Assembly (NCBI RefSeq): GCF_026410145.1
Contig: NZ_JAPMLO010000004.1
DNA from: Marinicella marina
GTDB taxonomy: Bacteria > Pseudomonadota > Gammaproteobacteria > Xanthomonadales > Marinicellaceae
DNA length: 64,000 nt
Direction: 5' to 3' (one strand)
Shown piece by piece: positions 5,272-42,211 of this stretch. Made by a program: the position numbers and the translations under genes. The notes beneath the pieces were generated by a model. That model made no database searches. It saw only the letters and a program-made list of their open reading frames with translations, and had not been told where the DNA came from. Position 1 is the first letter of the stretch. Every line of letters starts with the position of its first letter.

Positions 5272-5274
5272 GAT

Positions 5275-6962: not shown

Positions 6963-7379
6963 CTCTATTGATAAACAAACAGCAACAACAATACATAATA
7001 AAATGAATTAAGCTGCGCACGCATTGTGACCACCCATTACAATGAGCGACCGATTAAACCATGAGAATGTTGGAGGCTAACGAACTAAATTTCAAGTCAT
7101 TTTTTTAATCAATCTGAACTACGATGCCATTAAGCCATTCTCGGGTGATTAGTGGACCAATATTCAATATTCATTGACTTACCACAAGACCTTGTCTATC
7201 ATCGCTTAGCTGTTTTGAACATTGATTATTAAAGGATGCTGAGGGGCTTCATCTGATTTCATTGCCATAAAACCAAATCCAACCATGTTCAACAACCCCT
7301 TACCAGGGCTTCCCTGTTAGTTGGGTTGACTATCAGCTGAAATTTCACGACACACAACAAAGACTTGTAATCAATAAAG

Positions 7380-8393: not shown

Positions 8394-8418
8394 CTTTAAC
8401 CAAAATAATCAATTAAAC

Positions 8419-9189
8419 ATGAATCTATCAGATACCAAAGCAATCATATCAGGTGGCGCATCAGGCCTCGGGTTTGCCTGTGCCGAACACATTGTCAATC
8501 ATGGTGGTCAAGTCACCTTGATCGACATCAATCAACAAGCTGGCGATGAGGCAGTCGCTAATTTGGGTAAAGAACATGCCCACTTTGTTAAAGCTGATGT
8601 CAGCAACGAAGCCGAAATTAAAACCGCATGTGACGCCGCAAAGGCATTCTCTGACGGTTTAAATGTGGTTATTAATTGTGCTGGTGTTTTGGCAGGTGGT
8701 CGGGTATTGGGCCGTGAAGAGCCTATGGCCTTAAGCCATTTCAACAAGGCCATCCAGGTCAACTTAGTTGGCAGTTTTAATTTATCGAAAGCCGCGGCTT
8801 TTTTGATGCAACATAACGATGCAGATCAAGATGGGCAAAGGGGTGTGATCATCAACACCGCATCGGTTGCTGCCTATGAAGGCCAAATTGGCCAAGCAGC
8901 CTATTCTGCCAGTAAGGGTGGCATTGTCGGTATGACTTTGCCTATGGCGCGTGAATTAACTCGTTTTGGCATACGAGTCATGACCATTGCACCTGGGGTG
9001 TTTTTGACCCCAATGGTGGCTGGCCTACCAGATGAAATCAAAGCCGCTTTGGGTGCTTCAGTGCCTTTCCCATCGAGACTGGGTGAGCCATCTGAATTTG
9101 CTCGTATGGCAGAGCATATCATCGAGAATACATACTTAAATGGTTCAACCATCAGATTAGATGGTGCAGTCAGGTTAGAACCCAAATAA
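8419..9189 (+). CDS. SDR-family oxidoreductase (3-hydroxyacyl-CoA dehydrogenase type-2-like)
   Basis: Rossmann motif ISGGASGLG, catalytic YSASK, and PG motif. Confidence 0.85.
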   Translation: MNLSDTKAIISGGASGLGFACAEHIVNHGGQVTLIDINQQAGDEAVANLGKEHAHFVKADVSNEAEIKTACDAAKAFSDGLNVVINCAGVLAGGRVLGREEPMALSHFNKAIQVNLVGSFNLSKAAAFLMQHNDADQDGQRGVIINTASVAAYEGQIGQAAYSASKGGIVGMTLPMARELTRFGIRVMTIAPGVFLTPMVAGLPDEIKAALGASVPFPSRLGEPSEFARMAEHIIENTYLNGSTIRLDGAVRLEPK

Positions 9190-9207
9190 ATAAGTAAACA
9201 ATCAAAT

Positions 9208-9238
9208 AAAAAAACCAGCTAAAAAGCTGGTTTTTTTA
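9208..9238. terminator. Bidirectional rho-independent terminator between convergent genes
   Basis: A-run, stem CCAGCT, loop AAAA, stem AGCTGG, then T7 run. Serves 8419..9189 (+) and 9246..10067 (-). Confidence 0.8.
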
Positions 9239-9245
9239 ATCCCCT

Positions 9246-10067
9246 TTATTTTTGCTTGGGCCCACCCAAGCCTGGTCCTAATTCCCAAGCGTCAGCATCA
9301 ATGGTTTCTTTATAAGCATGCCAAGTGGCATGTCCCACCAGCGGCAATAAAACAATGAATCCCAAATAAAAAGTTAAAATTCCTATCACCACCAGAACCA
9401 CAATCAATAAACCCCAAACCAGCATGGTCAATTTATTTTTCAACACGGCATTGATGGATGTTACTACCGCGGTTACTGTATCCACTTTGCGGTCCATCAG
9501 CATGGGAATAGAAAAAGCCCCCACACAAAAAATAATTCCTGCAAATATCGCCCCAACAGCACTGCCAACACTCAAAAACATCACCCAGTCTTCAAATTGC
9601 ATGGAACTGGGAAAGAAAATGTGCAGCATGCTCGCTGCCCTGGCCCATATTAAAAACACAATCAAAAACATGAATGATAAAACCATCTCATTCCCGAGGT
9701 TTTTTTGCCCTTCCCGCAAACACCTAAAAAACTGAGGCTCAACCTGATTACTGATTTGTCGACTGAGTGAATACAAGCCAATGGCAATGATTGGCCCCAA
9801 AAAGAAAAAACCAGCGGTGATTGCAATGGCCAACACAATTGAATGTGCTTGATAGGCCACCCACGTAATAAAAACGCTGATCAACATCATAATTACACCA
9901 TAAGCCAAGCTTATCTTTGGTACTTGCACCAAGTCCTTCCAACCTTTTTTCAACCAAACAAAAGGGGCCGTTGTTGGTACTTTACGACATGGAGCAACAA
10001 TCGGTTGAACATACTCACTGCTGGCTTGTGGTTCATTGGAAGTGCTGTGATTATTTGCTTCAGACAT
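9246..10067 (-). CDS. DUF2189-like polytopic inner-membrane protein
   Basis: 273 aa, multiple TM helices, polar N-terminus. Family assignment from memory; moderate. Confidence 0.45.
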   Translation of the reverse strand: MSEANNHSTSNEPQASSEYVQPIVAPCRKVPTTAPFVWLKKGWKDLVQVPKISLAYGVIMMLISVFITWVAYQAHSIVLAIAITAGFFFLGPIIAIGLYSLSRQISNQVEPQFFRCLREGQKNLGNEMVLSFMFLIVFLIWARAASMLHIFFPSSMQFEDWVMFLSVGSAVGAIFAGIIFCVGAFSIPMLMDRKVDTVTAVVTSINAVLKNKLTMLVWGLLIVVLVVIGILTFYLGFIVLLPLVGHATWHAYKETIDADAWELGPGLGGPKQK

Positions 10068-10188
10068 GCCTTAGATTGAATTCAATTACCAAATAAAATA
10101 ACACAAATCCAGCAACAGCTTTTCAACCATTAAGCCGTAATTTGATTTAAATCAAACTTTTACAGGATTGAATTTAACTATAAATGCC

Positions 10189-10764
10189 TCAATCAAAACT
10201 ATTGAGGAAAATCACATCACTCTCAGTAATGATTATGGCGCCATCATTACGGACCAAACGATAAAACTCTTGTGAAGACTGGTTACCTCTCGCACCAGAG
10301 AGCACATAGGCTAAAACATAGACTTCACCAACTGGCTCTGTTGGTGGAATCCAAAACAATGTTCTTGAGCCCACATTACCATGGCTGCTGGTATGGGTGG
10401 CTGCCATCATGGCGCTGCCACCACAGTCCCTCACTTCAGTTTCATCATCAAAGTTAAAAGTACCGACTTTCTGGCCTTTGCCATCGACCACTGAGATCAC
10501 AATACCAGTATAAGTGGCTTGATTGCCTGCACCCGTTGCGGTCAGGGTGATCTCGACGTGTTCAAAAACGTTATATTCGGAAACATTCGATGACAATACA
10601 TAGCCTCCGGTATTTTGATTTCTGGTTCTGGATTGCATGCCAGTGATGGTTGAAAAATTGGCAACCACATCACAGGTACCAGCACCACTAGCGAATGCGC
10701 TTGATTCTGAATTCAAAACCCAACAACCCACGACAATCAGTAAAATTTTTATTTGTGTTTTCAT
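10189..10764 (-). CDS. Secreted hypothetical protein (signal peptide; C-terminal DVIFLNSFD tail)
   Basis: N-terminal MKTQIKILLIVVGCWVLNSESSAFA signal. No recognisable catalytic motif. Shares its C-terminal tail with two other secreted proteins in the window. Confidence 0.5.
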   Translation of the reverse strand: MKTQIKILLIVVGCWVLNSESSAFASGAGTCDVVANFSTITGMQSRTRNQNTGGYVLSSNVSEYNVFEHVEITLTATGAGNQATYTGIVISVVDGKGQKVGTFNFDDETEVRDCGGSAMMAATHTSSHGNVGSRTLFWIPPTEPVGEVYVLAYVLSGARGNQSSQEFYRLVRNDGAIIITESDVIFLNSFD

Positions 10765-10987
10765 ACTACCCTCTTTTTAAAGTGTATACATTTTTTAAAC
10801 ATAATAATTCATGCTGGGTAATAATAACAGCATAATAAAACCAACAAATATCTTTCAATTCGAAAACAAATACCGTTAAGCGGAAAATTTAAAGCCCTAT
10901 TTTCTAACTATTACCACAATTCATCAGCATTCTTGGCCACATGCGGCTATAATCGCGCCTGCTTTTTATCTTCAAAAAAAACACCAC

Positions 10988-12589
10988 ATGATCTCTACAG
11001 CTAACATCACCATGCAGTTTGGCTCTAAGCCATTATTTGAAAACATTTCTATTAAGTTTGGTAATGGCAACCGCTATGGCCTAATAGGCGCCAACGGTTG
11101 TGGTAAATCAACCTTTATGAAAATTCTGACCGGTGAACTGGCACCCTCATCAGGTAATGTCAGTTACGACCCCGATGAGCGCATCGGTGTTTTGGGTCAG
11201 GACCAATATGCTTTTGAAGAATTCTCAGTGATTGATACCGTTATCATGGGTCACAAAGAACTGTGGGAAGTCAAAGCAGAACGCGATCGCATATACGCCT
11301 TACCAGAAATGTCAGATGAAGAAGGCATGCTGGTGGGTGAATTAGAAAACACCTTTGCTGAAATGGATGGTTATTCTGCTGAAGCCCGTGCCGGCGAATT
11401 GTTATTGGGTCTGGAAATTCCTGAAGAACAGCATTTTGGCCCCATGTCTGAGGTAGCACCAGGCTGGAAATTACGTGTATTGCTTGCACAAGCTTTATTT
11501 GCTGATCCCGATATTTTACTGTTAGATGAGCCAACAAATAACCTGGACATCAATACCATTCGTTGGTTGGAAGACACCCTGAATGCCAGAAAATCGACCA
11601 TGATCATCATTTCACATGATCGACACTTTTTAAATTCAGTCTGCACACACATGGCAGACCTTGATTATGGTGAGTTGCGCATGTTCCCAGGCAATTACGA
11701 TGAATACATGACAGCAGCGACACAAGCCAGAGAAAAACAATATGCAGAAAATGCCAAGAAGAAAGCCCAAATAGCAGAATTACAAAGCTTTGTTTCAAGG
11801 TTTTCAGCCAACGCTTCTAAAGCCAAGCAAGCTACATCAAGACAAAAACAATTGGATAAAATCCAATTGGAACACATCAAACCTTCCTCTCGAGTGAACC
11901 CTTATATTGTCTTCAAACAAGAGAAAAAATTATTCAGAAATGCAATAAACATCAAAGGCTTAAGCAAGTCTTTTGATAAAAACACTTTGTTTAAAGATGT
12001 CGACTTATTATTAGAGGTGGGCGAACGCTTGGCCGTGATAGGTGCCAATGGCATCGGCAAAACCACATTTTTAAACTGCATCACTGATACCATTTCGCCT
12101 GATTCCGGTGAAGTCAAATGGTCAGAAAATGTTGACATCGCTTATTTCAAACAAGACAACATGGGTGCTTTCAAACAAGACATCACCGCCTACCAATGGA
12201 TGGAACAATTCAAAAAGCCCGAAGACGATGAGCAAGCCATACGCTCGGTGATGGGTCGTATGCTGTTCTCAAAAGAAGACTCAGCGAAGAAAGTCAGTGT
12301 CTTATCAGGTGGTGAGAAAGGCCGTTTGATGTTTGGCAAATTGATGTTGGAAAAACCCAATGTTATTATTATGGATGAACCCACCAACCACTTAGACATG
12401 GAATCTATTGAGTCATTGAATTTGGCCTTGGAAAATTACGATGGCACGCTGATATTTGTCTCACATGATCGCCAATTTGTTTCATCTATCGCTACCCGTG
12501 TGATGGAATTACTGCCTCATGAAGTGGTTGATTTCAGGGGCACTTACAGTGATTACTTGGAAAGACAAGGCATTAAAGAAGCTTCATAA
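10988..12589 (+). CDS. ABC-F family ATPase (YbiT-like, two ABC cassettes, no TM domain)
   Basis: Two Walker A motifs (GANGCGKST and GANGIGKTT), two LSGGE signatures. 533 aa matches YbiT/EttA-class proteins. Confidence 0.85.
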
Positions 12590-12647
12590 ATAAACGATAT
12601 GTATGAATTGATGCTAAAGTAACAACAGCCAAAAAATACAAGTATTT

Positions 12648-14834
12648 ATGGAAATAAAAGTCAACTACCTCGACAACCTGCGCTTAGAAGCTCTATTTGA
12701 TGACTTCAATGTAGTCTCTGACCAGCCCATCAGATACAAAGGCGATGGATCAGCACCTGGGCCATTTGACTATTTTTTGGCCTCCTCGGCCTTGTGTGCG
12801 GCTTATTTTGTTAAGGTTTATTGTAACGCCCGTGACATCCCCACAGATAACATTCGATTGTCACAAAACAACATCGTAGATCCTGAGAATCGATACAATC
12901 AAGTCTTCAAAATTCAAGTTGAATTACCAGAGGACATTTCTGATAAAGACCGCAAAGGCATTCTGCGTTCAATTGATCGCTGTACAGTTAAAAAAGTGGT
13001 ACAAAGCGGTCCGGATTTTCAAGTTGAGCTGGTTGACTCTTTAGCAGATGACACCGATGCCATGCTGATGGTGGATGTAGATCAAGCGAACGAGACTTTT
13101 ATACTGGGTAAAGACCTCCCTCTAGAACAAACCATAGCGAATATGACCTCACTGCTGGCTGGTTTGGGCATTAAAATCGAGGTGGCCTCATGGCGCAATA
13201 TTGTACCCAATGTGTGGTCATTGAATATCCGTGATGCCGCATCGCCGATGTGTTTCACCAACGGCAAAGGCGCCAGCAAAGAATCAGCCTTATGCTCTGC
13301 TTTGGGCGAGTATATTGAGCGTTTAAGCTGTAATTTCTTTTACAATGACCAGTACTTTGGACCTGAAATTGCTGGCAGCGAATTCGTTCACTACCCCAAC
13401 GAAAAATGGTTCCCACTCAACGCTGATGACAGCTTACCTGTAGACCTCTTGGATTCACACACGCTGGCTATCTACAATGAAGATGGAGAACTCAAAGGCT
13501 CGCATTTAATAGACACCAATTCGGGCATGAAAGAACGCGGTATTTGTTGTATCCCCTATATCAGGCAATCAGATGCTACCACCGTCTACTTTCCCTCGAA
13601 CTTAATTGAAAACGTGTTCCTCAGTAATGGCATGAGTGCAGGTAACACCCTGCCCGAGGCGGAGGTTCAATGTTTATCTGAAATTTTCGAACGTGCCGTA
13701 AAAAAACAAATCATTGAAGAAGAAATTGTGTTACCTGATGTTCCTGAATCAGTGCTTGAGCAATACCCGAGCATTCTGGCAGGCATTAAAGCACTTGAGG
13801 CTCAGGGGTTTCCGCTGGTCATCAAAGATGCATCATTAGGCGGTAAGTTTCCAGTGATGTGTGTCACCTTGATGAATCCCAAAACCGGCGGTGTATTTGC
13901 TTCGTTTGGCGCACACCCAAGTTTTGAAGTGGCTTTAGAGCGCAGTTTAACGGAATTACTTCAAGGCCGCAGCTTTGAGGGCTTGAATGATGTGCCTCTG
14001 CCTACCTTTAACTCATTGGCAGTGCAAGAACCAGAAAATTTTGTCGAACATTTCATTGATTCCACTGGGGTTATTTCGTGGCGTTTTTTCAGTGCCAACA
14101 GTGAATACGACTTCAATCATTGGGATTTCAGTGGTTCCACCAAAGTAGAACGTGATTTTTTGCTGAGTTTACTACACGATATGGGTCATGAAGTTTATGT
14201 TGCGGTTTTTGACCAATTAGGTGCCAATGCCTGTCGCATTTTGGTACCGGGTTATTCAGAGGTCTATCCTATAGAAGATTTGATTTGGGATAACACCAAT
14301 AAAGCACTGGATTACCGTGAAGACATATTGAACATCCACCGCCTTGATGACACCAATTTAGTTAATTTGGTTGATCGATTAGAGGACAGCCAACTTGATA
14401 ACCACACAGAAATCATCACTTTGATTGGGATTGAATTTGATGAGAATACAGTCTGGGGACAATTGACCGTTTTGGAGTTAAAAATTCTGATTTACCTGGC
14501 CCTTGGTGAACACGAGGATGCTTTGGATTTGGTTGAAGAGTTTCTGCAATACAACATCAACACACGAGAACGTAATTTGTTTTATCAGGCCATGCAAGCC
14601 GTGCTTGAAATTACTTTAGATGAAGATCTGCAATTGGCTGATTTTGAAAACAATCTTACTCGCATGTTTGGCGATGCTGTGATGCGCCGTGTGATTGGCT
14701 CAGTTCAGGGCTCAGTGAAGTTCGATGGTTTAACTGAAACCAACATGAACTTAGATGGCTTGGACAAACACCAGCGGTTGTTAGACAGTTACCATAAAAT
14801 TCACCTAGCCAGGAAAAACAACATCACTGATTGA
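12648..14834 (+). CDS. OsmC domain / YcaO domain fusion protein
   Basis: N-terminal 130 aa are OsmC/Ohr-like (GPFDYFLASSALCAAYF). From about residue 190 the YcaO core follows: FTNGKGASKESALCSALGEYIERLS and ExxER-type ATP-binding residues. C-terminal TPR-like helical region as in E. coli YcaO. Confidence 0.75.
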   Translation: MEIKVNYLDNLRLEALFDDFNVVSDQPIRYKGDGSAPGPFDYFLASSALCAAYFVKVYCNARDIPTDNIRLSQNNIVDPENRYNQVFKIQVELPEDISDKDRKGILRSIDRCTVKKVVQSGPDFQVELVDSLADDTDAMLMVDVDQANETFILGKDLPLEQTIANMTSLLAGLGIKIEVASWRNIVPNVWSLNIRDAASPMCFTNGKGASKESALCSALGEYIERLSCNFFYNDQYFGPEIAGSEFVHYPNEKWFPLNADDSLPVDLLDSHTLAIYNEDGELKGSHLIDTNSGMKERGICCIPYIRQSDATTVYFPSNLIENVFLSNGMSAGNTLPEAEVQCLSEIFERAVKKQIIEEEIVLPDVPESVLEQYPSILAGIKALEAQGFPLVIKDASLGGKFPVMCVTLMNPKTGGVFASFGAHPSFEVALERSLTELLQGRSFEGLNDVPLPTFNSLAVQEPENFVEHFIDSTGVISWRFFSANSEYDFNHWDFSGSTKVERDFLLSLLHDMGHEVYVAVFDQLGANACRILVPGYSEVYPIEDLIWDNTNKALDYREDILNIHRLDDTNLVNLVDRLEDSQLDNHTEIITLIGIEFDENTVWGQLTVLELKILIYLALGEHEDALDLVEEFLQYNINTRERNLFYQAMQAVLEITLDEDLQLADFENNLTRMFGDAVMRRVIGSVQGSVKFDGLTETNMNLDGLDKHQRLLDSYHKIHLARKNNITD

Positions 14835-33098: not shown

Positions 33099-33800
33099 TT
33101 AATTTAATTCTTCTGCTTTGATGACCCAGTAACTGCCGTCTTCTTCATCGTATGATTTCAGTATGACCAAATCACCTTTGGTGATGTTATCAGACACTTT
33201 GGCTCTGACATCAAACAGCATCCCTGCGCCACCATCTTGGTACTCTGCTTGGCCGAAGCTCTCAGTGACAGAGCCCGTTTTAACCAAACACTCACTGCCT
33301 ATGAAAGAAACCTTGTTTCTGGCCGTGTACGACACAAAAGCACTTTTCAGAGGCCTGATGAATTGTGCCGTGACTGGTATGGCCAAAGCAAAACTGACCA
33401 ATAACAAAGCCGCACCAACCAACCACTGTAACAGCGCCAAAGGAATCAGTGGCATAACCACTGATGCCAAAATGTAACTGATCAACCAAGCCGAAGCCAC
33501 CAAAATCGAGACCACCACAGTCACAGGCACACCAGTCAGACCCCATTTCAACATAAAGCCGGTAATCCCTCTGAGACTTTCAGGGTCAAAATCAGGATCT
33601 ACCGTAGCACCTACATCGGCATCTACATCAAGCTCAATATCTGCGTCAACATCAACATCAAGATCGAAGTCAGCATCAAACATATCAATATCAACCGCAC
33701 CTAACATCGCCAATAACCAGTAAACAATGATGATTGCCAGTAAAAAGGTAAACACAATCACAGGAAAACTCGTTATGTTTGTTAAAAAAATTTCCATCAC
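33099..33800 (-). CDS. YqiJ-like NfeD-family membrane protein (DUF1449; TM region plus C-terminal OB-fold)
   Basis: N-terminal TM, acidic D-rich linker, further TM helices, and a C-terminal beta-rich domain GDLVILKSYDEEDGSYWVIKAE as in NfeD partners of flotillins. Overlaps upstream gene by 4 bp. Confidence 0.6.
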   Translation of the reverse strand: MMEIFLTNITSFPVIVFTFLLAIIIVYWLLAMLGAVDIDMFDADFDLDVDVDADIELDVDADVGATVDPDFDPESLRGITGFMLKWGLTGVPVTVVVSILVASAWLISYILASVVMPLIPLALLQWLVGAALLLVSFALAIPVTAQFIRPLKSAFVSYTARNKVSFIGSECLVKTGSVTESFGQAEYQDGGAGMLFDVRAKVSDNITKGDLVILKSYDEEDGSYWVIKAEELN

Positions 33801-34138
33801 AGCTCCTCATCAATATTTTTGACGTGCTCAATCAGTTTTTCTGCAGCTCGCCTTTTGACCTCAACAGGGTCATTGGTTTCTAATTCATACGCTTCGGCTA
33901 AAAAAGCCATGTCATCATCAGACAGTGAGATTGATAGACGCAGTCGTTTTGGTTTTCGCGACACACTCAGACCCAGAATTTGTCTGATTCTGTCAGACGG
34001 GTTGATGCTTCTGTCTAAAGCTTCTTTTCTGATCACATATTGGATTTTCTCACCCACATCGAAAGCCACCTGGGTGGCCTTCACCGCTTTCTTCTCCTTG
34101 GCCCATTTATTCAAGATTTGTTGTTTCTTATCAGTCAT
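33797..34138 (-). CDS. Small ribbon-helix-helix (CopG-like) DNA-binding protein
   Basis: C-terminal KRLRLSISLSDDDMAFLAEAYELETNDPVEVKRRAAEKLIEHV fits the RHH beta-alpha-alpha pattern. 113 aa. Confidence 0.4.
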   Translation of the reverse strand: MTDKKQQILNKWAKEKKAVKATQVAFDVGEKIQYVIRKEALDRSINPSDRIRQILGLSVSRKPKRLRLSISLSDDDMAFLAEAYELETNDPVEVKRRAAEKLIEHVKNIDEEL

Positions 34139-34269
34139 GCAGCCAATATTTCCCTGTCAACAATCCCTGTCGACACATCAACTGCATGGTCCTTAGCCTG
34201 ATAATAAATTTGATTCATGGGTTTCATTCATTCAACTCAAAAATAAGCATTAATAAAAGTTGCAACAGA

Positions 34270-34980
34270 TCATTCCTTGTCAATGATCCTTTTCAACACA
34301 TCTGCTGCATCTTCCGTGACTTGTTCAGAAACTTCATTCTGATGTTTTTCGGTCAACACTGGCTTGCGCTCATTAACCATTGCATCATCCACTTCATATT
34401 GTTCATCAAGGCTTTGCTGTTTTCTGCGTATCCTTTCCAAGGATCGTTTGGCAGATAACATTTTGCTGTCGGCTTGGTTGAAGTTTTTGGTAATGACTTC
34501 AGTCGCCTTTTGGATGTCCGCAGTGGTTTGTACCATTGCCACCTGCCGTTCCAGTTCTTTCAATGAACGTTCGGCATTTTCCATTTGTCGAGTCAAATGA
34601 CCTAAGTGCAGTTCATGTGACTTGAGTATGCCCGCCTCGGCTGCCAGGTCTTGTTCCAGTTCAACCATTTCAGTGGCCAAATCAAAAGCCAATATTTCAT
34701 CATTTTGACTCAAAGCCTTAATGATGCGCTGCTCATGCTCATCAACTTGCGACTTCATCAACTTAACTTTTCTAGAGCATTGTGATTCTTTGGCCAATGC
34801 GTCGCTGATGGCATGTTTGGCACTGCTTAAATTAACTTTGGCCACTTCAATTTGTTTTTCGTATATTTTATTACCAGTTGAATCCATAACCGCTTCACTC
34901 AATGCCCTGGAATCATCTCTGATGACTTGAATGATCTTATCTAAGATGTTCATTCCTGCACGTTTCTTATCACCACTCAT
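34270..34980 (-). CDS. PspA/IM30 family protein (YjfJ-like; bacterial ESCRT-III homologue)
   Basis: 236-aa all-helical coiled coil. The N-terminal pattern ILDKIIQVIRDDSRALSEA parallels PspA/YjfJ. Confidence 0.75.
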   Translation of the reverse strand: MSGDKKRAGMNILDKIIQVIRDDSRALSEAVMDSTGNKIYEKQIEVAKVNLSSAKHAISDALAKESQCSRKVKLMKSQVDEHEQRIIKALSQNDEILAFDLATEMVELEQDLAAEAGILKSHELHLGHLTRQMENAERSLKELERQVAMVQTTADIQKATEVITKNFNQADSKMLSAKRSLERIRRKQQSLDEQYEVDDAMVNERKPVLTEKHQNEVSEQVTEDAADVLKRIIDKE

Positions 34981-35384
34981 TTTAAGAAGTCCTCCATGGC
35001 CGATACCACATCAACAGCGTTTTCGTTCAACATCACCACCTCTTCCACCACTTTATCTAACTCAGAACTGACCGATAAAGCACCGAAAAGCACATACCGA
35101 TCGCCTACCCTGGCGTAAGATGACAATGGTATTGAAATGCTGGTATCAAGCATCATTTCTAACATCTCAGTGCGCCTGTCTGCTCTGATTTCATCCTCGG
35201 TCCATAAATAGATGATACAAATGATTTGAAATTGAGTTTGCGTAATAAACACCGGAAAACCATCAAACCCATTGATCTCAACCTGTAACACTTCTACTTC
35301 CCCAGTGATTCTTTGGCAATCAAAAGTAAAGCCTTCCGTGGTTCTGTGTTGAGATAATTTAATGGCAAAATCCTCTGTGTTCAT
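34977..35384 (-). CDS. YjfI-like DUF2170 protein
   Basis: 135 aa immediately 5' of the PspA/YjfJ-like gene with a 4-bp overlap, as in the E. coli yjfI-yjfJ pair. Confidence 0.5.
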   Translation of the reverse strand: MNTEDFAIKLSQHRTTEGFTFDCQRITGEVEVLQVEINGFDGFPVFITQTQFQIICIIYLWTEDEIRADRRTEMLEMMLDTSISIPLSSYARVGDRYVLFGALSVSSELDKVVEEVVMLNENAVDVVSAMEDFLK

Positions 35385-35419
35385 ATCGTTTTTCTCTCCT
35401 TCATCTGCTCAATGCATGA

Positions 35420-35452
35420 TGACATAATATGTCACAATGACATAATATGTCA
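35420..35452. promoter_or_regulatory. Two tandem copies of perfect 15-bp palindrome TGACATAATATGTCA (putative operator) upstream of yjfI-pspA operon
   Basis: 35420..35434 and 35438..35452 are identical, with 7-1-7 inverted-repeat symmetry. Further TGACAT/ATGTCA-like half-sites follow at 35464-35490. Sits 36-68 bp 5' of the yjfI-like start on the minus strand. Confidence 0.6.
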
Positions 35453-35583
35453 ATGTGCATGAAGTCACATATGAACTGTATTTGACATCTAGGCAGGTAT
35501 GAAAATGAATTAAATAAGGGGCTTATATGATTGTAAAACTTAACAATAAATAAAAAAATTACCCGAAAAGTAAGTGGCTGAAA

Positions 35584-36570
35584 TTAATTTTGATTATTTT
35601 CTGGTTCAATTTCATGCAGCGCTGCGCTTGAGTCATCACTGACCTGCTGCATGTGTTCAAGGGTCTGATCAATCAATACTTTGGCTTGTTCTAATTTGGC
35701 CGTATCGATTCTGAAGTGCTCGGCATGCTTTTGCTGGCGTTGATTGTTGTTGGCCATCGCCACACCAGCTGCCACATCCAGAGCGGCTGTGGTGGTCATC
35801 ACCGTTTGGTCAATATCACGGATCAAGCTTTGGTTTTGTTTGATGATCAATTCTACGGTCATCATCGCTTGTCTGGCGATCAAGGATTGTTGTTGTAGGT
35901 CGATCAAGCGTTGTTGCACTGGGCCAAGTAATTCATCATCAATGACCGCTAAGTGATGGGCACTGATTGTTAAGGTATCTGCGCTGCGTAGTTTGAGTTG
36001 TTGTTCGAAGACAGTCACGAAATCAAAGCTTTGGGTCAGTTTTTGCAAACCCGCCATCAACGCTTCATGATCGCCGTTGAGAATCTGATTGTCGCGCATC
36101 AACTGCCGCTTTTCAGCATTTAACTGTTCCACCAATCCAACCATCACTTTGCGTTTTTCCGGGAAATTATCCAACCACATTTGATAAGCTGATTCTCGCC
36201 AAGAAAACAACAACAAAAAACGTTCCCTCCAGCTCAATCTGCGTTGAGGAGGTTGCATGTCAGCCACCTGTTGCGAAAGTTGAGCCAGTAACTTTGATAC
36301 CTTACCACCGGCATCGGTATCTGCCATCAATTGTTGCAAAGGATGAATCAAGCGCTTATTCAACTGCCAATAAGCCGCCTGCTCCTCTGCCCCCAACTCA
36401 AATAAGGCATTCCTGACTTGATCAACCAACTGTAAATCATTGAAATCCATCGCCAGCACCCAATCAACCAATTGATCAGCAGCTTTTTCTATGTATGCCT
36501 CAGACTCATGACTGATCATTGCATGATCAAGTGTGCTTAATTGTTTAAAAGTTGCCAGTGCAGCCTTCAT
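35584..36570 (-). CDS. TelA-like toxic-anion-resistance family protein
   Basis: 328-aa helical protein. LVDQVRN segment matches the conserved LLDQVRN region of TelA/KlaB/YaaN. Confidence 0.5.
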   Translation of the reverse strand: MKAALATFKQLSTLDHAMISHESEAYIEKAADQLVDWVLAMDFNDLQLVDQVRNALFELGAEEQAAYWQLNKRLIHPLQQLMADTDAGGKVSKLLAQLSQQVADMQPPQRRLSWRERFLLLFSWRESAYQMWLDNFPEKRKVMVGLVEQLNAEKRQLMRDNQILNGDHEALMAGLQKLTQSFDFVTVFEQQLKLRSADTLTISAHHLAVIDDELLGPVQQRLIDLQQQSLIARQAMMTVELIIKQNQSLIRDIDQTVMTTTAALDVAAGVAMANNNQRQQKHAEHFRIDTAKLEQAKVLIDQTLEHMQQVSDDSSAALHEIEPENNQN

Positions 36571-36695
36571 TAAAGATTAACCATCCTGTTGTTTTTTCCT
36601 ATTATATACATGTATCATTCAAAGACATAAGCCTCAAATAAACAAGGTTTAATTAATCAAGATTTCTCAGAATAACAATAAACCTACTAAAGCCT

Positions 36696-37106
36696 ATGAA
36701 ACAATTTCACCTCAGTATCAAAACCCCAGGACGTGGATATTATTTAATCACTGACCAAATCAATCGGTGTGTTGAAGAAGCTCTGGCTGGGCTTGATGTG
36801 GGTTTGTTGCATGTATTCTTGCAGCATTCATCGGCCAGTCTGACCATCAACGAAAATGCCGATCCGACGGTACGTGAGGATTTCAAGAACTTTGAGGAAA
36901 AGTTGGTACCTAGGAATTTTCCCTATCGGCATAACTATGAGGGTGATGATGACATGCCTGCGCACATAAAATCTTCACTGATGGGCTGTCAATTATCCAT
37001 ACCAATCAGCGGTGGACGTTTGGCACTGGGCACTTGGCAGGGAATTTATTTGTGTGAGCACCGCGATCAACCACATCAAAGAAATATGGTATTAACCATC
37101 TATTAA
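36696..37106 (+). CDS. YjbQ/UPF0047 secondary thiamine-phosphate synthase-like protein
   Basis: 136 aa. HSSASLTINENADPTV, MGCQLSIPISGGRLALGTWQGIYLCEHR are conserved YjbQ blocks. Confidence 0.8.
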   Translation: MKQFHLSIKTPGRGYYLITDQINRCVEEALAGLDVGLLHVFLQHSSASLTINENADPTVREDFKNFEEKLVPRNFPYRHNYEGDDDMPAHIKSSLMGCQLSIPISGGRLALGTWQGIYLCEHRDQPHQRNMVLTIY

Positions 37107-37481
37107 ACTGCAACCAGTTGGCTGCAACCAGTTGGCAGAAATCAATTGGGGGATGACACCTGATTTGAGGTGTTTTTATCAGTGCTTCCAGTCTCTAACG
37201 TGCTGACGGCATAGCTTGCAGCAATTACCACAATTACCGCAAATACAATGTATCTTTTATAACCTTTGAATTGTCTGATCATATTTGTTTTTTACAGTCT
37301 TAAAAAATTAATTAATAATCTCAATAAACATGTTTAAAATAAACCTAGTTTCATGAAGGCATTGTGAATCAATTGTTAACACGGTCTGAACCAACTGGTA
37401 TCAACGATTGTTACCATTGGCGCATAAAAAGTCTTAAGTTAACAACACTCAAACACAACAACAGAACTTAAATTAGGGATT

Positions 37482-38429
37482 ATGAAGAATAAATCAAGTG
37501 TAAAAGTAGGACTTGCTCTTGGCAGTGGCTCTGCCAGAGGCATGTCACACATCGGTGTGATTAAAGCTTTGGAGGCGATGGGCATCAAGGCAGACATTGT
37601 GGCGGGTTGTTCTGTGGGCAGTATGGTTGGTGCCAGTTATGCCACCAACAATTTATCCCACTTAGAGGAATGGGCGTTATCAATGAACGAATCAAAGGTT
37701 CGTTCTTTCCTCAGCCTCAACTTCAATGCCTCTGGATTCATCAATTCGATGAAGTTAAAGAAGCTTTTTGAACATGCCATTGGCCTTGAATCATTGAAGT
37801 TCAAAGACATGGACAGACCGTTTGGCGCAGTGGCAACCGACTTAAGTACCGGCAAAGAGGTTTGGTTGAATGAAGGTTCAGTGCATGATGCTTTGTGGTC
37901 ATCGATGGCTTTTCCGGGACTTTTTCCCAGTGTCAAACACGGTAACAAGTGGTTGGTTGATGGCGGCTTAGTCAACCCCGTACCCGTCTCTTTGTGTCGC
38001 GCCATGGGCGCTGAGAAAGTCATTGCAGTCAATCTCAATGCCGATATCATTAACAGTTACAAAGCCGTCAGCGATGAAGATGAAGAAGATGACTCATTAC
38101 CTGAGGATCCATTGGCTGATCAGGATGATGCTGGCCTGTGGGACAAAACCAAAGCGGGCTTTGAGAAAGCCGTTAAATTAATCAGTGCCGATGGCAGCAA
38201 AGTCAAAGAACCCAAAGGCATCGATGTGATTTCTAATTCCATTCACATCATGTCCTCGCATTTGACCCGCAGCAGATTAGCCGGCGAGCCACCTGATGTG
38301 TTATTGCAGCCACGGTTAACAGATGTTGGGCTGTTAGAGCTGCACAAATCAAAAGGGTGTATTGAGGAAGGTAAAAAGAGCGTTGAGCGAATGTCTGAAG
38401 AAATTAAATTCAGAATTTTTGGCGAATAA
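37482..38429 (+). CDS. Patatin-like phospholipase
   Basis: GSGSARG oxyanion motif, GCSVGS (GxSxG) nucleophile, DGG catalytic Asp. Confidence 0.85.
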   Translation: MKNKSSVKVGLALGSGSARGMSHIGVIKALEAMGIKADIVAGCSVGSMVGASYATNNLSHLEEWALSMNESKVRSFLSLNFNASGFINSMKLKKLFEHAIGLESLKFKDMDRPFGAVATDLSTGKEVWLNEGSVHDALWSSMAFPGLFPSVKHGNKWLVDGGLVNPVPVSLCRAMGAEKVIAVNLNADIINSYKAVSDEDEEDDSLPEDPLADQDDAGLWDKTKAGFEKAVKLISADGSKVKEPKGIDVISNSIHIMSSHLTRSRLAGEPPDVLLQPRLTDVGLLELHKSKGCIEEGKKSVERMSEEIKFRIFGE

Positions 38430-38436
38430 TTGAGTT

Positions 38437-39702
38437 ATGTCCGCTGGCAACAAATCAACCATAGAACTACCGATTAATTTGTCACTGGCTTTGGGTGCCT
38501 ACACCACAAAGATATGGGTAGGATCTGACAAGACGGAGTTAAATGTGCTGCTTGATACGGGCAGCAGCACCCTGGCCATTGATGCCGAAGTTTATCAGGC
38601 TGGTGCTGACCAATCTTTACAAGCAACCCAATACGCTCAAAGCGTCGTTTATGGTAAAGGTGGCTGGGCCGGACCGGTGATTCGCACTGAGATAACGCTT
38701 GATCACAGCGACCAATATTTACTCAATGATGCGCCCTTGGCCCTGACCAAGAGCGCTACAAAAAATGATTTTCAAAATGCGGATGGTATTTGGGGCTTGG
38801 CCTATCACCATTTGAACAAAGCTTATGATGTCAGTTCATCACTTGAGCAAATCATACCACCACAAAAAACTACCCATCCCTGGCCATATACCGAACAAGT
38901 AAAGGAAATCGGTGTTCATGGATTCAAGAAATATTTACACCAATTTCCAGAACATGACATCACCCCTACTTTTACTGCCTTCGAAGAAAACAACATCATC
39001 AACAACCAATTTGCACTGAGTACCAATCGCTCCATTGTCTACGTACCCCAAGCAGGCATGAGTCAGCATGAAATCGCTGCACATGCAATGAATCGAGGTT
39101 TGTTCCAGATTGGTGTGACAGCCACCACACAAGAAAAAATCAGCATGGCAGTGGTGCATGATGCTTATTACAATGCTGATTTAATTGCTGTGCGTGTTGC
39201 AGGCTTTGGTGCTTGTAAGGCACCACCGCTAGAGGCTGATAAACTCAATAGTTTTTTCTCTAATGCCATCATAGATTCAGGCTGTAGTTTTTTGGTACTA
39301 CAAAAACAGCTGTATGAATATGTATTGAATTGTTTTGAAAAACTCAATCCCACATTCAGACCTGCACTTGAGGCAGCACAACAAGCATTCAGTCAAAATA
39401 AACCCTATAAAAACAATCAATTGGATCTCAGTCAGTGGCCAATTTTGACCTTTAAATTTGTCGGCACAGATTCTGAATCAATCGAATTAGAGCTACCGCC
39501 ACAATGTTATTGGCAGGAACACGCCAAAAGTCCTGATAATTGGATGTTTATGTTGATGAACCAAATGCCTCAATGGCCCAATCAAACCATCTGCGGACTG
39601 CCACTTATGAACAATTACCAATGTATTTTTGACCGCTCAGATCAGCAAAACGGTAGCATTCACTGGCTAAAGAAAGCTGTTCTAGCGCCAGATAAAAAAT
39701 AA
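38437..39702 (+). CDS. Pepsin-like (family A1) aspartic peptidase, bacterial shewasin-like, no signal peptide
   Basis: Two catalytic motifs with hydrophobic context: VLLDTGSSTLAI and AIIDSGCSFLVL. Flap-like YGKGGWAG. 421 aa, bilobal spacing. Confidence 0.7.
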   Translation: MSAGNKSTIELPINLSLALGAYTTKIWVGSDKTELNVLLDTGSSTLAIDAEVYQAGADQSLQATQYAQSVVYGKGGWAGPVIRTEITLDHSDQYLLNDAPLALTKSATKNDFQNADGIWGLAYHHLNKAYDVSSSLEQIIPPQKTTHPWPYTEQVKEIGVHGFKKYLHQFPEHDITPTFTAFEENNIINNQFALSTNRSIVYVPQAGMSQHEIAAHAMNRGLFQIGVTATTQEKISMAVVHDAYYNADLIAVRVAGFGACKAPPLEADKLNSFFSNAIIDSGCSFLVLQKQLYEYVLNCFEKLNPTFRPALEAAQQAFSQNKPYKNNQLDLSQWPILTFKFVGTDSESIELELPPQCYWQEHAKSPDNWMFMLMNQMPQWPNQTICGLPLMNNYQCIFDRSDQQNGSIHWLKKAVLAPDKK

Positions 39703-39782
39703 CATTAAGGTCATAACGACAATTAATTGACACCATTCAAATACAATTCATGTTCTTTTAAAACTAACTATAATCGACACGG

Positions 39783-40283
39783 ATGCATAAAAAAATACGC
39801 TTCATATTTACCCTTCTGATATCGACACTGATATTTCAGAGCCCAGTTAAAGCCAGTTTTAAACCTACTTGGTGGGGCGCATCAGCTGGACAAATCAATG
39901 TGTTCAGAGAAAACCAGTTTAAAAACAATTTCTATGGATTAGAGGTCAGATTTACACCCATCACTCAATGGTCCTTGACCCCTTCCCTGGGGTATCAATG
40001 GAGTGACAGTGGTATCAGTTACTTTTACTCGGGATTGAGTTATGACATTGACCTATCAGACCGTTGGACTTTCGATGTACATTCTGGTGTCGGCCTGTAT
40101 GACGATGGTCAGTTCTTAAATTTGGGGCACACGGTACAATTCCGCTCGGGCATTGAGTTTGATTACCAGCTGACACCAAAACAAAAGCTTGGTATCGTTA
40201 TCAATCATTTTTCTAACAGCCGTTTATCTGCTGTTAATCCAGGTACTGAGTCAGTTTCATTGATTTATTTGAATAAATTTTGA
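39783..40283 (+). CDS. PagL-like outer-membrane lipid A 3-O-deacylase / acyloxyacyl hydrolase family protein
   Basis: Signal peptide, amphipathic beta-strand pattern, and INHFSNS (H-x-S-N catalytic motif of PagL family). Confidence 0.55.
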   Translation: MHKKIRFIFTLLISTLIFQSPVKASFKPTWWGASAGQINVFRENQFKNNFYGLEVRFTPITQWSLTPSLGYQWSDSGISYFYSGLSYDIDLSDRWTFDVHSGVGLYDDGQFLNLGHTVQFRSGIEFDYQLTPKQKLGIVINHFSNSRLSAVNPGTESVSLIYLNKF

Positions 40284-40367
40284 ATACCAGCATCACCCCC
40301 CAAACTGCTCCAGCGTGAACTCGTAGCTGCTGTAGTTAGAGAAATCCTCACGTTATGTTATTAATAA

Positions 40368-41333
40368 ATGGCTTATAATGAAGAAAAAAACAATCCCATT
40401 GATGTGAATAATATATATAAAATAAAGCACATAAGCATTGATTTCGACGACCACAAATTAACCTCCAATGGCGTCGAAATGAGTATTGACTACAAAGCAA
40501 TTGAAGTGTTGCGGTTGATGGTTGAACGCGCCAACGAAACCATCACCACAGATGATTTTATGGAACAAATATGGCGGGACAAACCCTCTTCTCCCGAGGT
40601 TATTCCTGCGGCCATAGCCCGCTTAAGGAAAGTTTTTAAAAAAGCAGGCATCAGTGATGATTTGATTGTTACGGTGCATAAAGTGGGTTACCGTTTTGAA
40701 CCGCCTCCTGAGCAGCCCGTCATGACGACCACTCAAAGTAAAAAACACCCAGTCATACAAGGCCTTTTCTTGGTGCTGATTATTGGTGCTTTATTGGGCA
40801 GCATGGCGTTGAACATCATGTATTACATGAGCAACCTCCCCGATGACAAAGTAGCAGCAATCAAAGCGGCCAAAATTGCTAAGGAATCTGAGTCTGATGT
40901 CACTCAAATATACATCCTTAGACACACCGAAAAAACCGATGATTTTGCTGAAGACCCATTGCTTTCAGAGCGTGGTATTGAGCGCGCAAAGTACTGGAAA
41001 AAAGTATTGCAACACATTGAATTTGATCGTGTTTTTACCACAGATTTTAAACGCAACATCATGACCGCTGAGCTTATTGCAGATGCAAGCACCGTGCAAC
41101 CAGACTTGTATTATCCGATGTCGTTTGATGTGTTGAAATTCATCAACCAAATACGCGGCCAAAAAGTGCTGGTGATTGGCCACAGCAATACCATCCCTGA
41201 CATGGTTAATCGTTTGATTGATGAAACAAAATACCCACCCATGAGTCATGAAAACTACAACATTTTATATGTTGTCAATATCAACAAAGATGGCGCCACC
41301 AGTTCCAGCATGTTGCACATTGAATTACCTTAA
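40368..41333 (+). CDS. ToxR/CadC-like membrane-anchored transcriptional regulator (OmpR-type wHTH - TM - histidine-phosphatase/PGAM-like domain)
   Basis: N-terminal trans_reg_C pattern (IARLRKVF...TVHKVGYRFE). Single TM GLFLVLIIGALLGSMALNIMYYM. C-terminal YILRHTEKTDD and VLVIGHSNTI resemble the RHG and HG motifs of branch-1 histidine phosphatases. Confidence 0.6.
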   Translation: MAYNEEKNNPIDVNNIYKIKHISIDFDDHKLTSNGVEMSIDYKAIEVLRLMVERANETITTDDFMEQIWRDKPSSPEVIPAAIARLRKVFKKAGISDDLIVTVHKVGYRFEPPPEQPVMTTTQSKKHPVIQGLFLVLIIGALLGSMALNIMYYMSNLPDDKVAAIKAAKIAKESESDVTQIYILRHTEKTDDFAEDPLLSERGIERAKYWKKVLQHIEFDRVFTTDFKRNIMTAELIADASTVQPDLYYPMSFDVLKFINQIRGQKVLVIGHSNTIPDMVNRLIDETKYPPMSHENYNILYVVNINKDGATSSSMLHIELP

Positions 41334-41350
41334 TAATGCAGCTGTTGTGT

Positions 41351-42211
41351 TCAAAGACTGTAGAATGTGGTGTAAAAAAGTATCATGCGGTAAATAATAA
41401 ATACCCAATACACGCTGAAAGTAAAAACCAGCGCCTTAATCAGACTAAGGGTAACATTATTTTGATAAACCCGCCGACTGGCCAAATAGAAATAAACCCC
41501 AAAACACGTAAACATCAGCAATGAATAAATCAGTTCAACAGCATACCCACTGGATTGCAAGACTGCTATGAAGGAAGACAAATACAACAACGACTGCAAC
41601 AGCACATGAGTCATTAGCGCTTGTAGTAATAACATGAAAGCAAACACGTGTGTGGCAAATACCAAACTTGAAACCACTGGATGTGATTGGCTTGGATACA
41701 ACAAAAACACCACCACTGCAAACATGGGTACCATCAACATCACCAATGTCCGTGCTTGAAACTCGGCCGTATCATTAAATGCTTCAGCAAACTCGCCTGC
41801 ATCCTGGCCTGTTTGCTTCAAACGATCAGAGACCAATTCTTGCGCCACTTTTTGGTGGATGAAGTTTTCAGCATTCAAATGAGTTTTCAGCGGCGTGGTA
41901 AAGGCCGAATAACCAACGAGTCCCGCAATCAGGAAGAATTTGATGCTACAAAATAACAACAGTTGAAAAGGCGTGAGCAGGTGTTTTCTGATGCCTGACA
42001 GGTAATGTGTCGATAACACACCAGGCTGGGTCAACAACAACTTAATGGTCTTTAACCACTTGCCATCAATGTCCGTGACTGCTGCGATGGCATGTTTGGC
42101 TACTTTTGAAATTGATAAATCATGCTGTGAAAATTGTTTTTCACCACATTGGTGACAAAACTGCCCAATTATCACCTCATCACAACTTGGACAGTTTTGT
42201 TGTTCACCCAT
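41351..42211 (-). CDS. DUF3667-like membrane protein with N-terminal zinc ribbon
   Basis: CPSCDEVIIGQFCHQCGEK zinc ribbon followed by polytopic TM region. Confidence 0.55.
   Translation of the reverse strand: MGEQQNCPSCDEVIIGQFCHQCGEKQFSQHDLSISKVAKHAIAAVTDIDGKWLKTIKLLLTQPGVLSTHYLSGIRKHLLTPFQLLLFCSIKFFLIAGLVGYSAFTTPLKTHLNAENFIHQKVAQELVSDRLKQTGQDAGEFAEAFNDTAEFQARTLVMLMVPMFAVVVFLLYPSQSHPVVSSLVFATHVFAFMLLLQALMTHVLLQSLLYLSSFIAVLQSSGYAVELIYSLLMFTCFGVYFYLASRRVYQNNVTLSLIKALVFTFSVYWVFIIYRMILFYTTFYSL

What the first reader, a model, noticed from the sequence alone, without database searches (positions are those of the whole stretch)
37482..39702. Patatin-like phospholipase followed 7 bp later by a bacterial pepsin-like (A1) aspartic protease lacking a signal peptide
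Pepsin-family proteases are rare in bacteria. The few known (shewasin-type) are cytoplasmic single genes from marine gammaproteobacteria. Here both catalytic D-T/S-G motifs and a flap Tyr-Gly are intact. The gene is almost certainly co-transcribed with a canonical patatin (GxGxxG, GxSxG, DGG). A lipase-protease gene pair could act on a common lipoprotein or membrane substrate, and the pairing is not something I recognise as described.
Basis: partly seen in the sequence, partly recalled or inferred. Interest (0 to 1): 0.55.

Follow-up and report, generated by a model that had tools for sequence, protein, structure and literature searches.

The report
Detached borosin-type pepsin peptidase beside patatin
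The two genes are real, but the pepsin-like protease belongs to a known bacterial family whose studied member matures a ribosomal peptide (borosin) natural product, and its patatin neighbour is found only in a few close Marinicella relatives, so the pair is probably not a new lipase-protease system.

Summary
A 315-aa patatin-like ORF (37482-38429) is followed 7 nt later by a 421-aa family-A1 aspartic peptidase ORF (38437-39702). The peptidase has intact DTGSS and DSGCS motifs and a flap Tyr-Gly. It has no signal peptide or propeptide, and a confident model shows the two-lobed pepsin fold.

The window comes from Marinicella sp. S1101, where NCBI already names this protein "pepsin-like aspartyl protease". 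It is 38% identical to Colwellia CPS_0549, a member of the shewasin group. A 2024 preprint showed that shewasin A (SamP) is a borosin RiPP leader peptidase. It also showed that most bacterial A1 peptidases lie in, or distal to, borosin gene clusters.

I surveyed 86 related loci. A patatin neighbour occurs only in the query's own clade (at least 51% identity): 4 other loci, one with a PagL gene inserted between the two genes. It occurs in 0 of 39 informative loci outside that clade. Those loci instead carry GNAT, SonM-type N-methyltransferase and small polyanionic precursor genes.

S1101 encodes a SonM-type methyltransferase on another contig. Five related Marinicella clusters lack any A1 peptidase.

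Most likely this is a trans-encoded SamP-type peptidase, and the patatin adjacency is lineage-specific synteny. It is a new member of a known kind and of low interest.

The parts
37291..37319 (+). Promoter-like site (TTTACA-17-AATAAT) in the 375-nt gap upstream of the patatin gene. It is a possible start of the patatin-A1(-PagL) transcript.
   Evidence: 10 of 12 matches. However, the region holds fewer such sites than its shuffles (9 found, 12.9 expected), so this is only a candidate.
37482..38429 (+). RssA/YchK-like patatin-like phospholipase, 315 aa, with no signal peptide.
   Evidence: Orthologues 71-75% identical sit in the same position in L001, L005, L006 and L013.
38430..38436 (+). 7-nt intergenic spacer (ttgagtt) with at most a weak ribosome-binding site.
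   Evidence: No terminator-like site between the genes.
38437..39702 (+). Family A1 (pepsin-like) aspartic endopeptidase of the shewasin/SamP type, 421 aa. Catalytic D40 and D280, flap Y72.
   Evidence: It is 100% identical to P0001, 'pepsin-like aspartyl protease [Marinicella sp. S1101]'.
39783..40283 (+). PagL-like (lipid A 3-O-deacylase family) outer-membrane protein with a signal peptide. It lies 80 nt downstream on the same strand and may belong to the same transcript.
   Evidence: Pfam PagL 1.2e-10. Hydrophobic N-terminus. In M. sediminis the orthologue lies between the patatin and A1 genes.

Best explanation
The 421-aa gene encodes a cytoplasmic pepsin-type (family A1) endopeptidase of the shewasin/SamP kind, made without a propeptide. 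The one member of this kind with a known substrate, shewasin A (SamP), cuts an alpha-N-methylated borosin precursor just before a proline and releases a polyanionic C-terminal peptide.

Marinicella genomes carry a borosin-like cluster: GNAT, a SonM-type N-methyltransferase, small precursors ending in C-x-x-x-P-[D/G/E]-D-D and an acidic tail, and GGDEF proteins. That cluster holds no A1 peptidase. The A1 gene found for each genome lies elsewhere. In the lineage of this window, that gene lies directly behind an RssA-like patatin gene and is probably transcribed with it.

I therefore take the peptidase to act in trans on the precursors of the distant cluster. I take the patatin to be a neighbour by descent (a genus-level operon or synteny), not a partner working on a common lipid-protein substrate.

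Shown: the ORFs, motifs and fold; the distribution of neighbours; the presence of the methyltransferase in the same organism; and the absence of an A1 peptidase from the clusters of relatives.

Inferred: trans-action on those precursors, co-transcription with the patatin gene, and the lack of any functional coupling to the patatin.
For: Family placement. The protein is 38% identical over 96% of its length to P0098. P0098 is Colwellia psychrerythraea CPS_0549 at CP000083 546351..547676, which PMC2761423 lists in the Shewanella/Colwellia pepsin group.

Known function of the family. SamP (shewasin A) cleaves N-methylated SamA1. A1 peptidases are either in borosin clusters or encoded distally.

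Survey of 86 loci:
- A SonM-like NMT is within 5 kb in 26 loci.
- A GNAT is within 5 kb in 37 loci, and it is the immediate downstream gene in 24 of 73.
- A patatin is present in only 4 loci, all within the query's clade.

Tree. In the NJ tree, the patatin-linked clade is monophyletic and sister to loci where the NMT is adjacent to the A1 gene (L009, L010).

Same organism. Marinicella sp. S1101 has P0193, a methyltransferase that matches SonM (PDB 7LTC) at 6.8e-65 over its full length. P0193 is on a 399-kb contig; the A1 gene is on a 347-kb contig. None of the top 120 A1 homologues lies on a 399,401-bp contig.

Relatives. Clusters L087-L091 have GNAT, NMT, 53-68-aa ORFs and GGDEF genes, but no A1 gene or patatin within 8 kb on either side. 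These are W31, the 4.0-Mb genome, M. sediminis, M. meishanensis and a metagenome contig. In the 4.0-Mb genome the A1 gene lies at about 207 kb and the NMT at about 521 kb.

Precursors. Their C-termini (e.g. ...CLLLPDDDDEE) resemble the SamA1 cut site FF|PAEDEPE.
Against: The S1101 methyltransferase locus could not be fetched, so its precursor genes and its lack of a peptidase are inferred from relatives and from contig lengths.

I could not scan the whole S1101 genome for a second A1 paralogue.

The residue after D-S-G is Cys283, not the Ala that has been linked to near-neutral activity in shewasins.

The patatin-A1 adjacency survived in 5 of 6 genomes of the clade while the flanking genes were reshuffled. 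That is some evidence that the link is maintained by selection.

A Peptidase_M90 gene lies divergently next to the cluster in L088-L091 and could be its protease instead.

There are no expression or activity data.
Confidence: 0.58

Rival explanations
1. The patatin lipase and the A1 protease form a dedicated two-enzyme module that acts on one lipoprotein or membrane substrate.
For: The genes are 7 nt apart on one strand with no terminator between them. The adjacency is kept in L001, L005 and L013, and in L006 with PagL inserted, despite rearranged flanks. A second lipid-acyl hydrolase family (PagL) sits in the same block in two genomes.
Against: No patatin was found in 39 informative loci outside the clade, and none among the 73 downstream neighbours. 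One clade member (L007) lacks the patatin and has YjbQ overlapping the A1 gene instead. In W31 the upstream overlapping gene is an M14 carboxypeptidase. Both proteins lack export signals. RssA-like patatins are described from enterobacteria; as far as I know, those species lack A1 peptidases.
Confidence: 0.1
2. The A1 peptidase of this clade has left the borosin pathway. It now serves as a general or stress-related cytoplasmic protease, co-regulated with envelope-lipid enzymes (patatin, PagL).
For: The gene lies far from any NMT or GNAT: there is none in the 64-kb window. Cys replaces the Ala after D-S-G. A1 sequences in the clade are only 51-62% identical, while the neighbouring proteins are 70-82% identical. 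The preprint counts bacterial A1 peptidases that are not tied to borosins.
Against: Every genome of the clade that I could check also has the peptidase-less borosin-like cluster. The catalytic apparatus and family-specific invariant residues are conserved with cluster-embedded relatives. Fast evolution is typical of the whole bacterial family (PMC2761423).
Confidence: 0.22

Closest known systems
Shewasin A (SamP, Sama_0787) and shewasin D (Sden_0804), with the related Colwellia psychrerythraea CPS_0549: bacterial family-A1 peptidases
   Same: Bacterial pepsin homologue with no signal peptide or propeptide. Both D-T/S-G motifs and the flap Tyr are intact. Marine gammaproteobacterial host. 38% identity over the full length to CPS_0549. 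The organism also has a SonM-type borosin methyltransferase.
   Different: The gene is not inside a borosin cluster. It lies behind a patatin gene, with no NMT or GNAT in the 64-kb window. Cys, not Ala, follows the second D-S-G. I did not obtain the shewasin A or D sequences themselves, so the comparison runs through CPS_0549.
BACE1 / eukaryotic pepsins (closest solved structures)
   Same: Predicted two-lobed fold, with the catalytic Asp residues and the flap Tyr aligned.
   Different: Only 17-19% identity. No signal peptide, propeptide or membrane anchor. Extra helical inserts at about residues 152-184 and 290-319.
RssA/YchK patatin-like phospholipase of enterobacteria
   Same: Full-length match to the NCBIfam RssA model (residues 7-308; 262.9 bits). 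The Ser-Asp dyad motifs GCSVG and DGG are present.
   Different: The score is just below the equivalog cutoff of 272. In E. coli, from my own knowledge, rssA precedes rssB; here the patatin precedes an A1 peptidase. The function of RssA itself is unknown.
Split borosin clusters of the SonM/SonA type
   Same: Marinicella and Colwellia clusters hold a SonM-like NMT next to small precursor ORFs, plus the PF13302 GNAT that the preprint notes in the S. amazonensis (sam) cluster.
   Different: In Marinicella the peptidase is encoded elsewhere. The clusters also carry two GGDEF proteins, and the precursor tails are very short and purely acidic.

Membership tests
Peptidase family A1 (pepsin) | Two catalytic Asp residues in D-T/S-G motifs, one per lobe | tested here: met
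   D40-T-G-S-S and D280-S-G-C-S. The Asp and Gly positions are invariant in 24 homologues and align with the catalytic motifs of BACE1.
Peptidase family A1 (pepsin) | Flap Tyr (pepsin Tyr75) and the hydrophobic-hydrophobic-Gly motifs | tested here: met
   Y72-G73 is invariant. I118-W-G120 is conserved, and G387 in the C-lobe is invariant.
Peptidase family A1 (pepsin) | Two-lobed pepsin fold | tested here: met
   This rests on a prediction. The AF2 model has pLDDT 90.4. Foldseek top hits are BACE1 over the full length, E 6e-24, TM 0.66-0.72.
Peptidase family A1 (pepsin) | Score above the Pfam PF00026 gathering threshold | tested here: met
   40.5 bits against 19.9, N-lobe only. The C-lobe matches only weakly, through TAXi_C.
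Peptidase family A1 (pepsin) | Pepstatin-sensitive endopeptidase activity | not testable with these tools
   Needs enzyme assays.
Shewasin/SamP-type bacterial A1 peptidase (borosin maturase) | No signal peptide and no propeptide | tested here: met
   No hydrophobic N-terminus. The first strand of the fold starts at residue 9.
Shewasin/SamP-type bacterial A1 peptidase (borosin maturase) | Sequence relationship to the Shewanella/Colwellia group | tested here: met
   38% identity, E 8e-78, to CPS_0549 (P0098). The gene groups in the NJ tree next to loci where the A1 gene is adjacent to an NMT.
Shewasin/SamP-type bacterial A1 peptidase (borosin maturase) | Gene located inside a borosin cluster (NMT, precursor, GNAT) | tested here: not met
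   No NMT, GNAT or precursor-like ORF in the 64-kb window (tblastn E > 0.2). The preprint recognises a class of distally encoded peptidases.
Shewasin/SamP-type bacterial A1 peptidase (borosin maturase) | The same organism encodes a borosin alpha-N-methyltransferase | tested here: met
   P0193 from Marinicella sp. S1101 matches SonM (7LTC) at 6.8e-65. Its locus could not be read.
Shewasin/SamP-type bacterial A1 peptidase (borosin maturase) | Thr218-to-Ala substitution proposed to allow near-neutral activity | tested here: not met
   Cys283 occupies this position. The clade has Cys or Ser, and Colwellia-type sequences have Ala.
Shewasin/SamP-type bacterial A1 peptidase (borosin maturase) | Cleaves an N-methylated precursor | not testable with these tools
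   Needs reconstitution with the S1101 NMT and precursor.
Patatin-like phospholipase (PF01734), RssA subfamily | Ser-Asp dyad (GxSxG, DGG) and a Gly-rich oxyanion motif | tested here: met
   GCSVG at 42, DGG at 160 and GSGSARG at 14. Pfam scores 105 bits against a cutoff of 27.7.
Patatin-like phospholipase (PF01734), RssA subfamily | NCBIfam RssA equivalog cutoff | tested here: not met
   262.9 bits against a cutoff of 272. The protein is RssA-like, but not a called equivalog.
Hypothetical conserved patatin-A1 gene module | Adjacency conserved across distant members of the A1 family | tested here: not met
   Present in 4 of 85 other loci, all at least 51% identical to the query. Absent from all 39 informative loci outside the clade.

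The most novel reading that the evidence does not exclude
In this Marinicella lineage the RssA-like patatin, and perhaps also the PagL-like deacylase, has been recruited into the peptide pathway together with the detached peptidase. For example, it could remove or transfer an acyl group installed by the cluster's PF13302 GNATs on the polyanionic peptide. The patatin-A1 operon would then be a trans-acting maturation unit for a lipidated borosin-like product.
Probability: 0.07. Interest if true: 0.6.

Novelty: new member of a known kind. Interest (0 to 1): 0.22.

Why it matters
Little changes if the main reading is right. It adds one more example of the distally encoded class of bacterial pepsin-like peptidases that a 2024 preprint already tied to borosin clusters. 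It also shows that in Marinicella the detachment holds in every genome I could check. The useful outcome is corrective: the lipase-protease pairing should not be pursued as a new system, and the peptidase has a concrete, testable candidate substrate (precursors ending C-x-x-x-P-D-D-D...). Only if the patatin proved to act in the same pathway would this be of wider interest.

Tried and rejected
- The genome-contig scan was run with the single protein and returned only one locus. An alignment query would have been better.
- The locus of the S1101 methyltransferase P0193 is not on record. Its 93%-identical relative P0200 has gene calls but no DNA. An upstream gene of at least 372 aa on that contig could not be identified. 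I argue from contig lengths that it is not an A1 gene, but this is not proven.
- A DUF885 gene lies near both the A1 locus and the NMT cluster. I tested whether this marks a recent split or duplication. The two are only 33-35% identical, so I rejected the idea.
- An Rfam scan of 36400-41600 for a riboswitch or leader (for example c-di-GMP, given the GGDEF genes in the cluster) found nothing.
- A PDB sequence search with a Colwellia precursor ORF found no match.
- PMC11751858 was read for SamP, but the hits were the word 'sample'.
- The papers on shewasin D and on pepsin homologues in bacteria do not discuss gene neighbourhoods.
- The deep, long branches of that NJ tree (L041, L045, L050, L051) come from over-long ORF calls and should not be read as phylogeny.

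Full report
**1. What is in the sequence**

The two ORFs exist at the stated coordinates. One is 37482..38429 + (315 aa) and the other is 38437..39702 + (421 aa). Seven nucleotides lie between the stop and the start (TAA ttgagtt ATG). No terminator-like hairpin lies between them.

The first ORF is a patatin-like phospholipase:
- Pfam PF01734 scores 6.5e-30.
- Its closest curated model is RssA, at 262.9 bits, just under the 272-bit equivalog cutoff.
- Its motifs are GSGSARG, GCSVG and DGG.

The second ORF is a family-A1 peptidase:
- Pfam PF00026 passes its threshold, though only on the N-lobe.
- D40-T-G-S-S, Y72-G73 and D280-S-G are invariant in an alignment of 24 homologues down to 35% identity.
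- These residues align with the catalytic aspartates and flap tyrosine of BACE1.
- An AlphaFold2 model is confident (pLDDT 90.4, pTM 0.88). Its best solved-structure matches are full-length BACE1 (E 6e-24, TM 0.66-0.72).
- The N-terminus is not hydrophobic, and the first strand of the fold begins at residue 9. There is therefore neither a signal peptide nor a propeptide.

**2. Where it comes from and what family it is**

The protein is 100% identical to 'pepsin-like aspartyl protease [Marinicella sp. S1101]' (P0001). Homologues occur in other Marinicella (43-62% identity) and in Pleionea, Kangiella, Colwellia, Thalassotalea and Corallincola, as well as in many metagenomes. The search found 242 clusters at E<=1e-3 and 206 metagenome stretches.

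P0098 (38% identity, 96% coverage) is CPS_0549 of Colwellia psychrerythraea. The coordinates match exactly. This is one of the seven original bacterial pepsin homologues, and Rawlings and Bateman place it with the Shewanella sequences (PMC2761423). So this is a member of the shewasin-type group.

**3. What that group is now known to do**

The shewasin D paper showed cytoplasmic localisation but no physiological role (PMC4814920). A 2024 preprint (bioRxiv 10.1101/2024.01.09.574750) reports the following:
- Shewasin A and D lie in borosin RiPP gene clusters.
- Shewasin A (SamP) efficiently cleaves its neighbour precursor SamA1 only when the precursor is alpha-N-methylated. The cut falls between Phe53 and Pro54 and releases a polyanionic peptide.
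- Of 441 A1 peptidases from a PSI-BLAST of NCBI nr (84 of them eukaryotic), most are in borosin clusters. 56 are in organisms that have such a cluster elsewhere, and 118 (including all 84 eukaryotic ones) are unassociated.
- A PF13302 acetyltransferase is part of the cluster.

**4. Is the patatin neighbour conserved?**

I gathered 86 loci that encode relatives: one genome hit, six look-ups and 79 metagenome loci.

tblastn with the window's patatin finds it in only four loci: L001, L005, L006 and L013. All four A1 proteins there are at least 51% identical to the query. In L001, L005 and L013 the patatin is directly upstream, with gaps of 15-47 nt. In M. sediminis (L006) a PagL gene lies between the two. 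A sixth clade member (L007) has no patatin; there YjbQ overlaps the A1 start by 4 nt.

Pfam scans of the immediate neighbours gave:

| Neighbour set | Family | Count |
|---|---|---|
| 49 upstream genes | Patatin | 3 |
| 49 upstream genes | Dus (divergent; Colwellia type) | 13 |
| 73 downstream genes | Patatin | 0 |
| 73 downstream genes | Acetyltransf_3 | 24 |
| 73 downstream genes | TP_methylase | 6 |

Within 5 kb, a SonM-like methyltransferase is present in 26 loci, the GNAT in 37, and small precursor-like ORFs in about 20. Outside the query's clade, 39 distinct loci have at least 1 kb of upstream sequence, and none has a patatin.

An NJ tree places the patatin-linked loci in one clade. That clade is sister to loci where the methyltransferase overlaps the A1 stop codon (L009, L010), followed by Marinicella sp. 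W31.

The pairing is thus real but confined to one genus-level lineage.

**5. Does the organism have the rest of the pathway?**

The 64-kb window has no methyltransferase, GNAT or precursor of this type.

Marinicella sp. S1101 does encode P0193. This protein is 61% identical to the A1-adjacent methyltransferase of L010, and it matches the borosin enzyme SonM (PDB 7LTC) at 6.8e-65 over its full length. It lies on a 399-kb contig, whereas the A1 gene is on a 347-kb contig. None of the top 120 A1 homologues lies on a 399,401-bp contig. By contrast, several members of the sister clade share contig lengths with their methyltransferases.

I could not read the S1101 locus itself. I did read the equivalent locus in five relatives:
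- W31: L087
- the 4.0-Mb genome: L088
- M. sediminis: L089
- M. meishanensis: L090
- a metagenome contig: L091

All five have GNAT, NMT, a 53-68-aa ORF and GGDEF genes, usually in two sets, at a syntenic chromosomal site. None has an A1 or patatin gene within 8 kb. In the 4.0-Mb genome the A1 gene is at about 207 kb and the methyltransferase at about 521 kb.

Colwellia psychrerythraea has the same cluster with the A1 gene at its head.

The small ORFs are homologous across genera. They share an N-terminal ...LEKIGQ..S... region and a C-terminal C-x-x-x-P-[D/G/E]-D-D motif followed by a purely acidic tail. This resembles the SamA1 cut site FF|PAEDEPE.

**6. Interpretation**

The simplest account is that the A1 gene was detached from its cluster in Marinicella. 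In this sub-lineage it came to lie behind a housekeeping RssA-like patatin gene, and it still serves the distant cluster.

In every case the A1 gene sits tightly behind a same-strand gene:
- a patatin, PagL or YjbQ in this clade;
- an M14 carboxypeptidase in W31.

This suggests that the A1 gene borrows upstream transcription, not that it needs a particular partner.

Several points count against full confidence:
- The S1101 cluster was not seen.
- A second A1 paralogue cannot be excluded.
- Cys replaces the Ala that has been linked to near-neutral activity.
- The patatin-A1 link persisted in 5 of 6 genomes while the flanks were reshuffled.
- A Peptidase_M90 gene beside the cluster could be its protease.

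**7. Novelty and score**

The protein is already annotated, its family is described, and the 'distal peptidase' class is recognised. The patatin adjacency is undescribed, but it looks like local synteny. This is a new member of a known kind. Interest 0.22.

Noticed in passing
L002:4851-6011 (+) and L002:6001-7263 (+), Marinicella sp. W31: In W31 the A1 peptidase gene is overlapped by 11 nt by an upstream cytosolic-carboxypeptidase-type M14 gene (Pfam Pepdidase_M14_N plus Peptidase_M14). From my own knowledge, eukaryotic enzymes of this type trim C-terminal acidic residues. The presumed A1 products are polyacidic peptides, and the preprint saw C-terminal trimming of the SamA1 product by an unknown host protease. 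This could be a functional pair.
   Followed up: no
L003 (C. psychrerythraea) 6001-13326; L087-L091 about 3900-13600: The borosin-like clusters of Colwellia and Marinicella each hold two GNATs, two small precursors and two GGDEF (diguanylate cyclase) proteins, one with TPR repeats. The Marinicella precursors end in very short, purely acidic tails such as PDDDDEE. The role of the cyclases in a RiPP cluster is unexplained.
   Followed up: partly
window 40368-41333 (+): A 321-aa protein joins an N-terminal OmpR/ToxR-type winged-helix DNA-binding domain, one predicted transmembrane segment (about residues 133-151) and a C-terminal histidine-phosphatase (SixA-like) domain. This is an unusual architecture for a membrane-anchored regulator. 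It is conserved near the A1 gene in L001, L005 and L006.
   Followed up: partly
window 39783-40283 (+); L006:5474-5974: The PagL-like gene changes place between genomes. It lies after the A1 gene here, between the patatin and A1 genes in M. sediminis, and is absent from this block in L001, L005 and L013.
   Followed up: partly
window 33797-36570 (-): A minus-strand block holds a 113-aa ORF that I did not scan against Pfam, then PspA/IM30, DUF2170 and TelA-like genes. The DUF2170 and TelA genes are also upstream of the A1 gene in L007.
   Followed up: no
window 38065-38130 (patatin residues about 196-217): The patatin carries an acidic low-complexity insert (SDEDEEDDSLPEDPLADQDDAG). It differs in length and sequence in the L001 orthologue.
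   Followed up: no
L068-L086 (soil and rhizosphere metagenome loci): A separate clade of shorter A1 homologues (about 380 aa, 29-33% identity) has no NMT, GNAT or patatin nearby. These may correspond to the non-borosin bacterial pepsins mentioned in the preprint.
   Followed up: no
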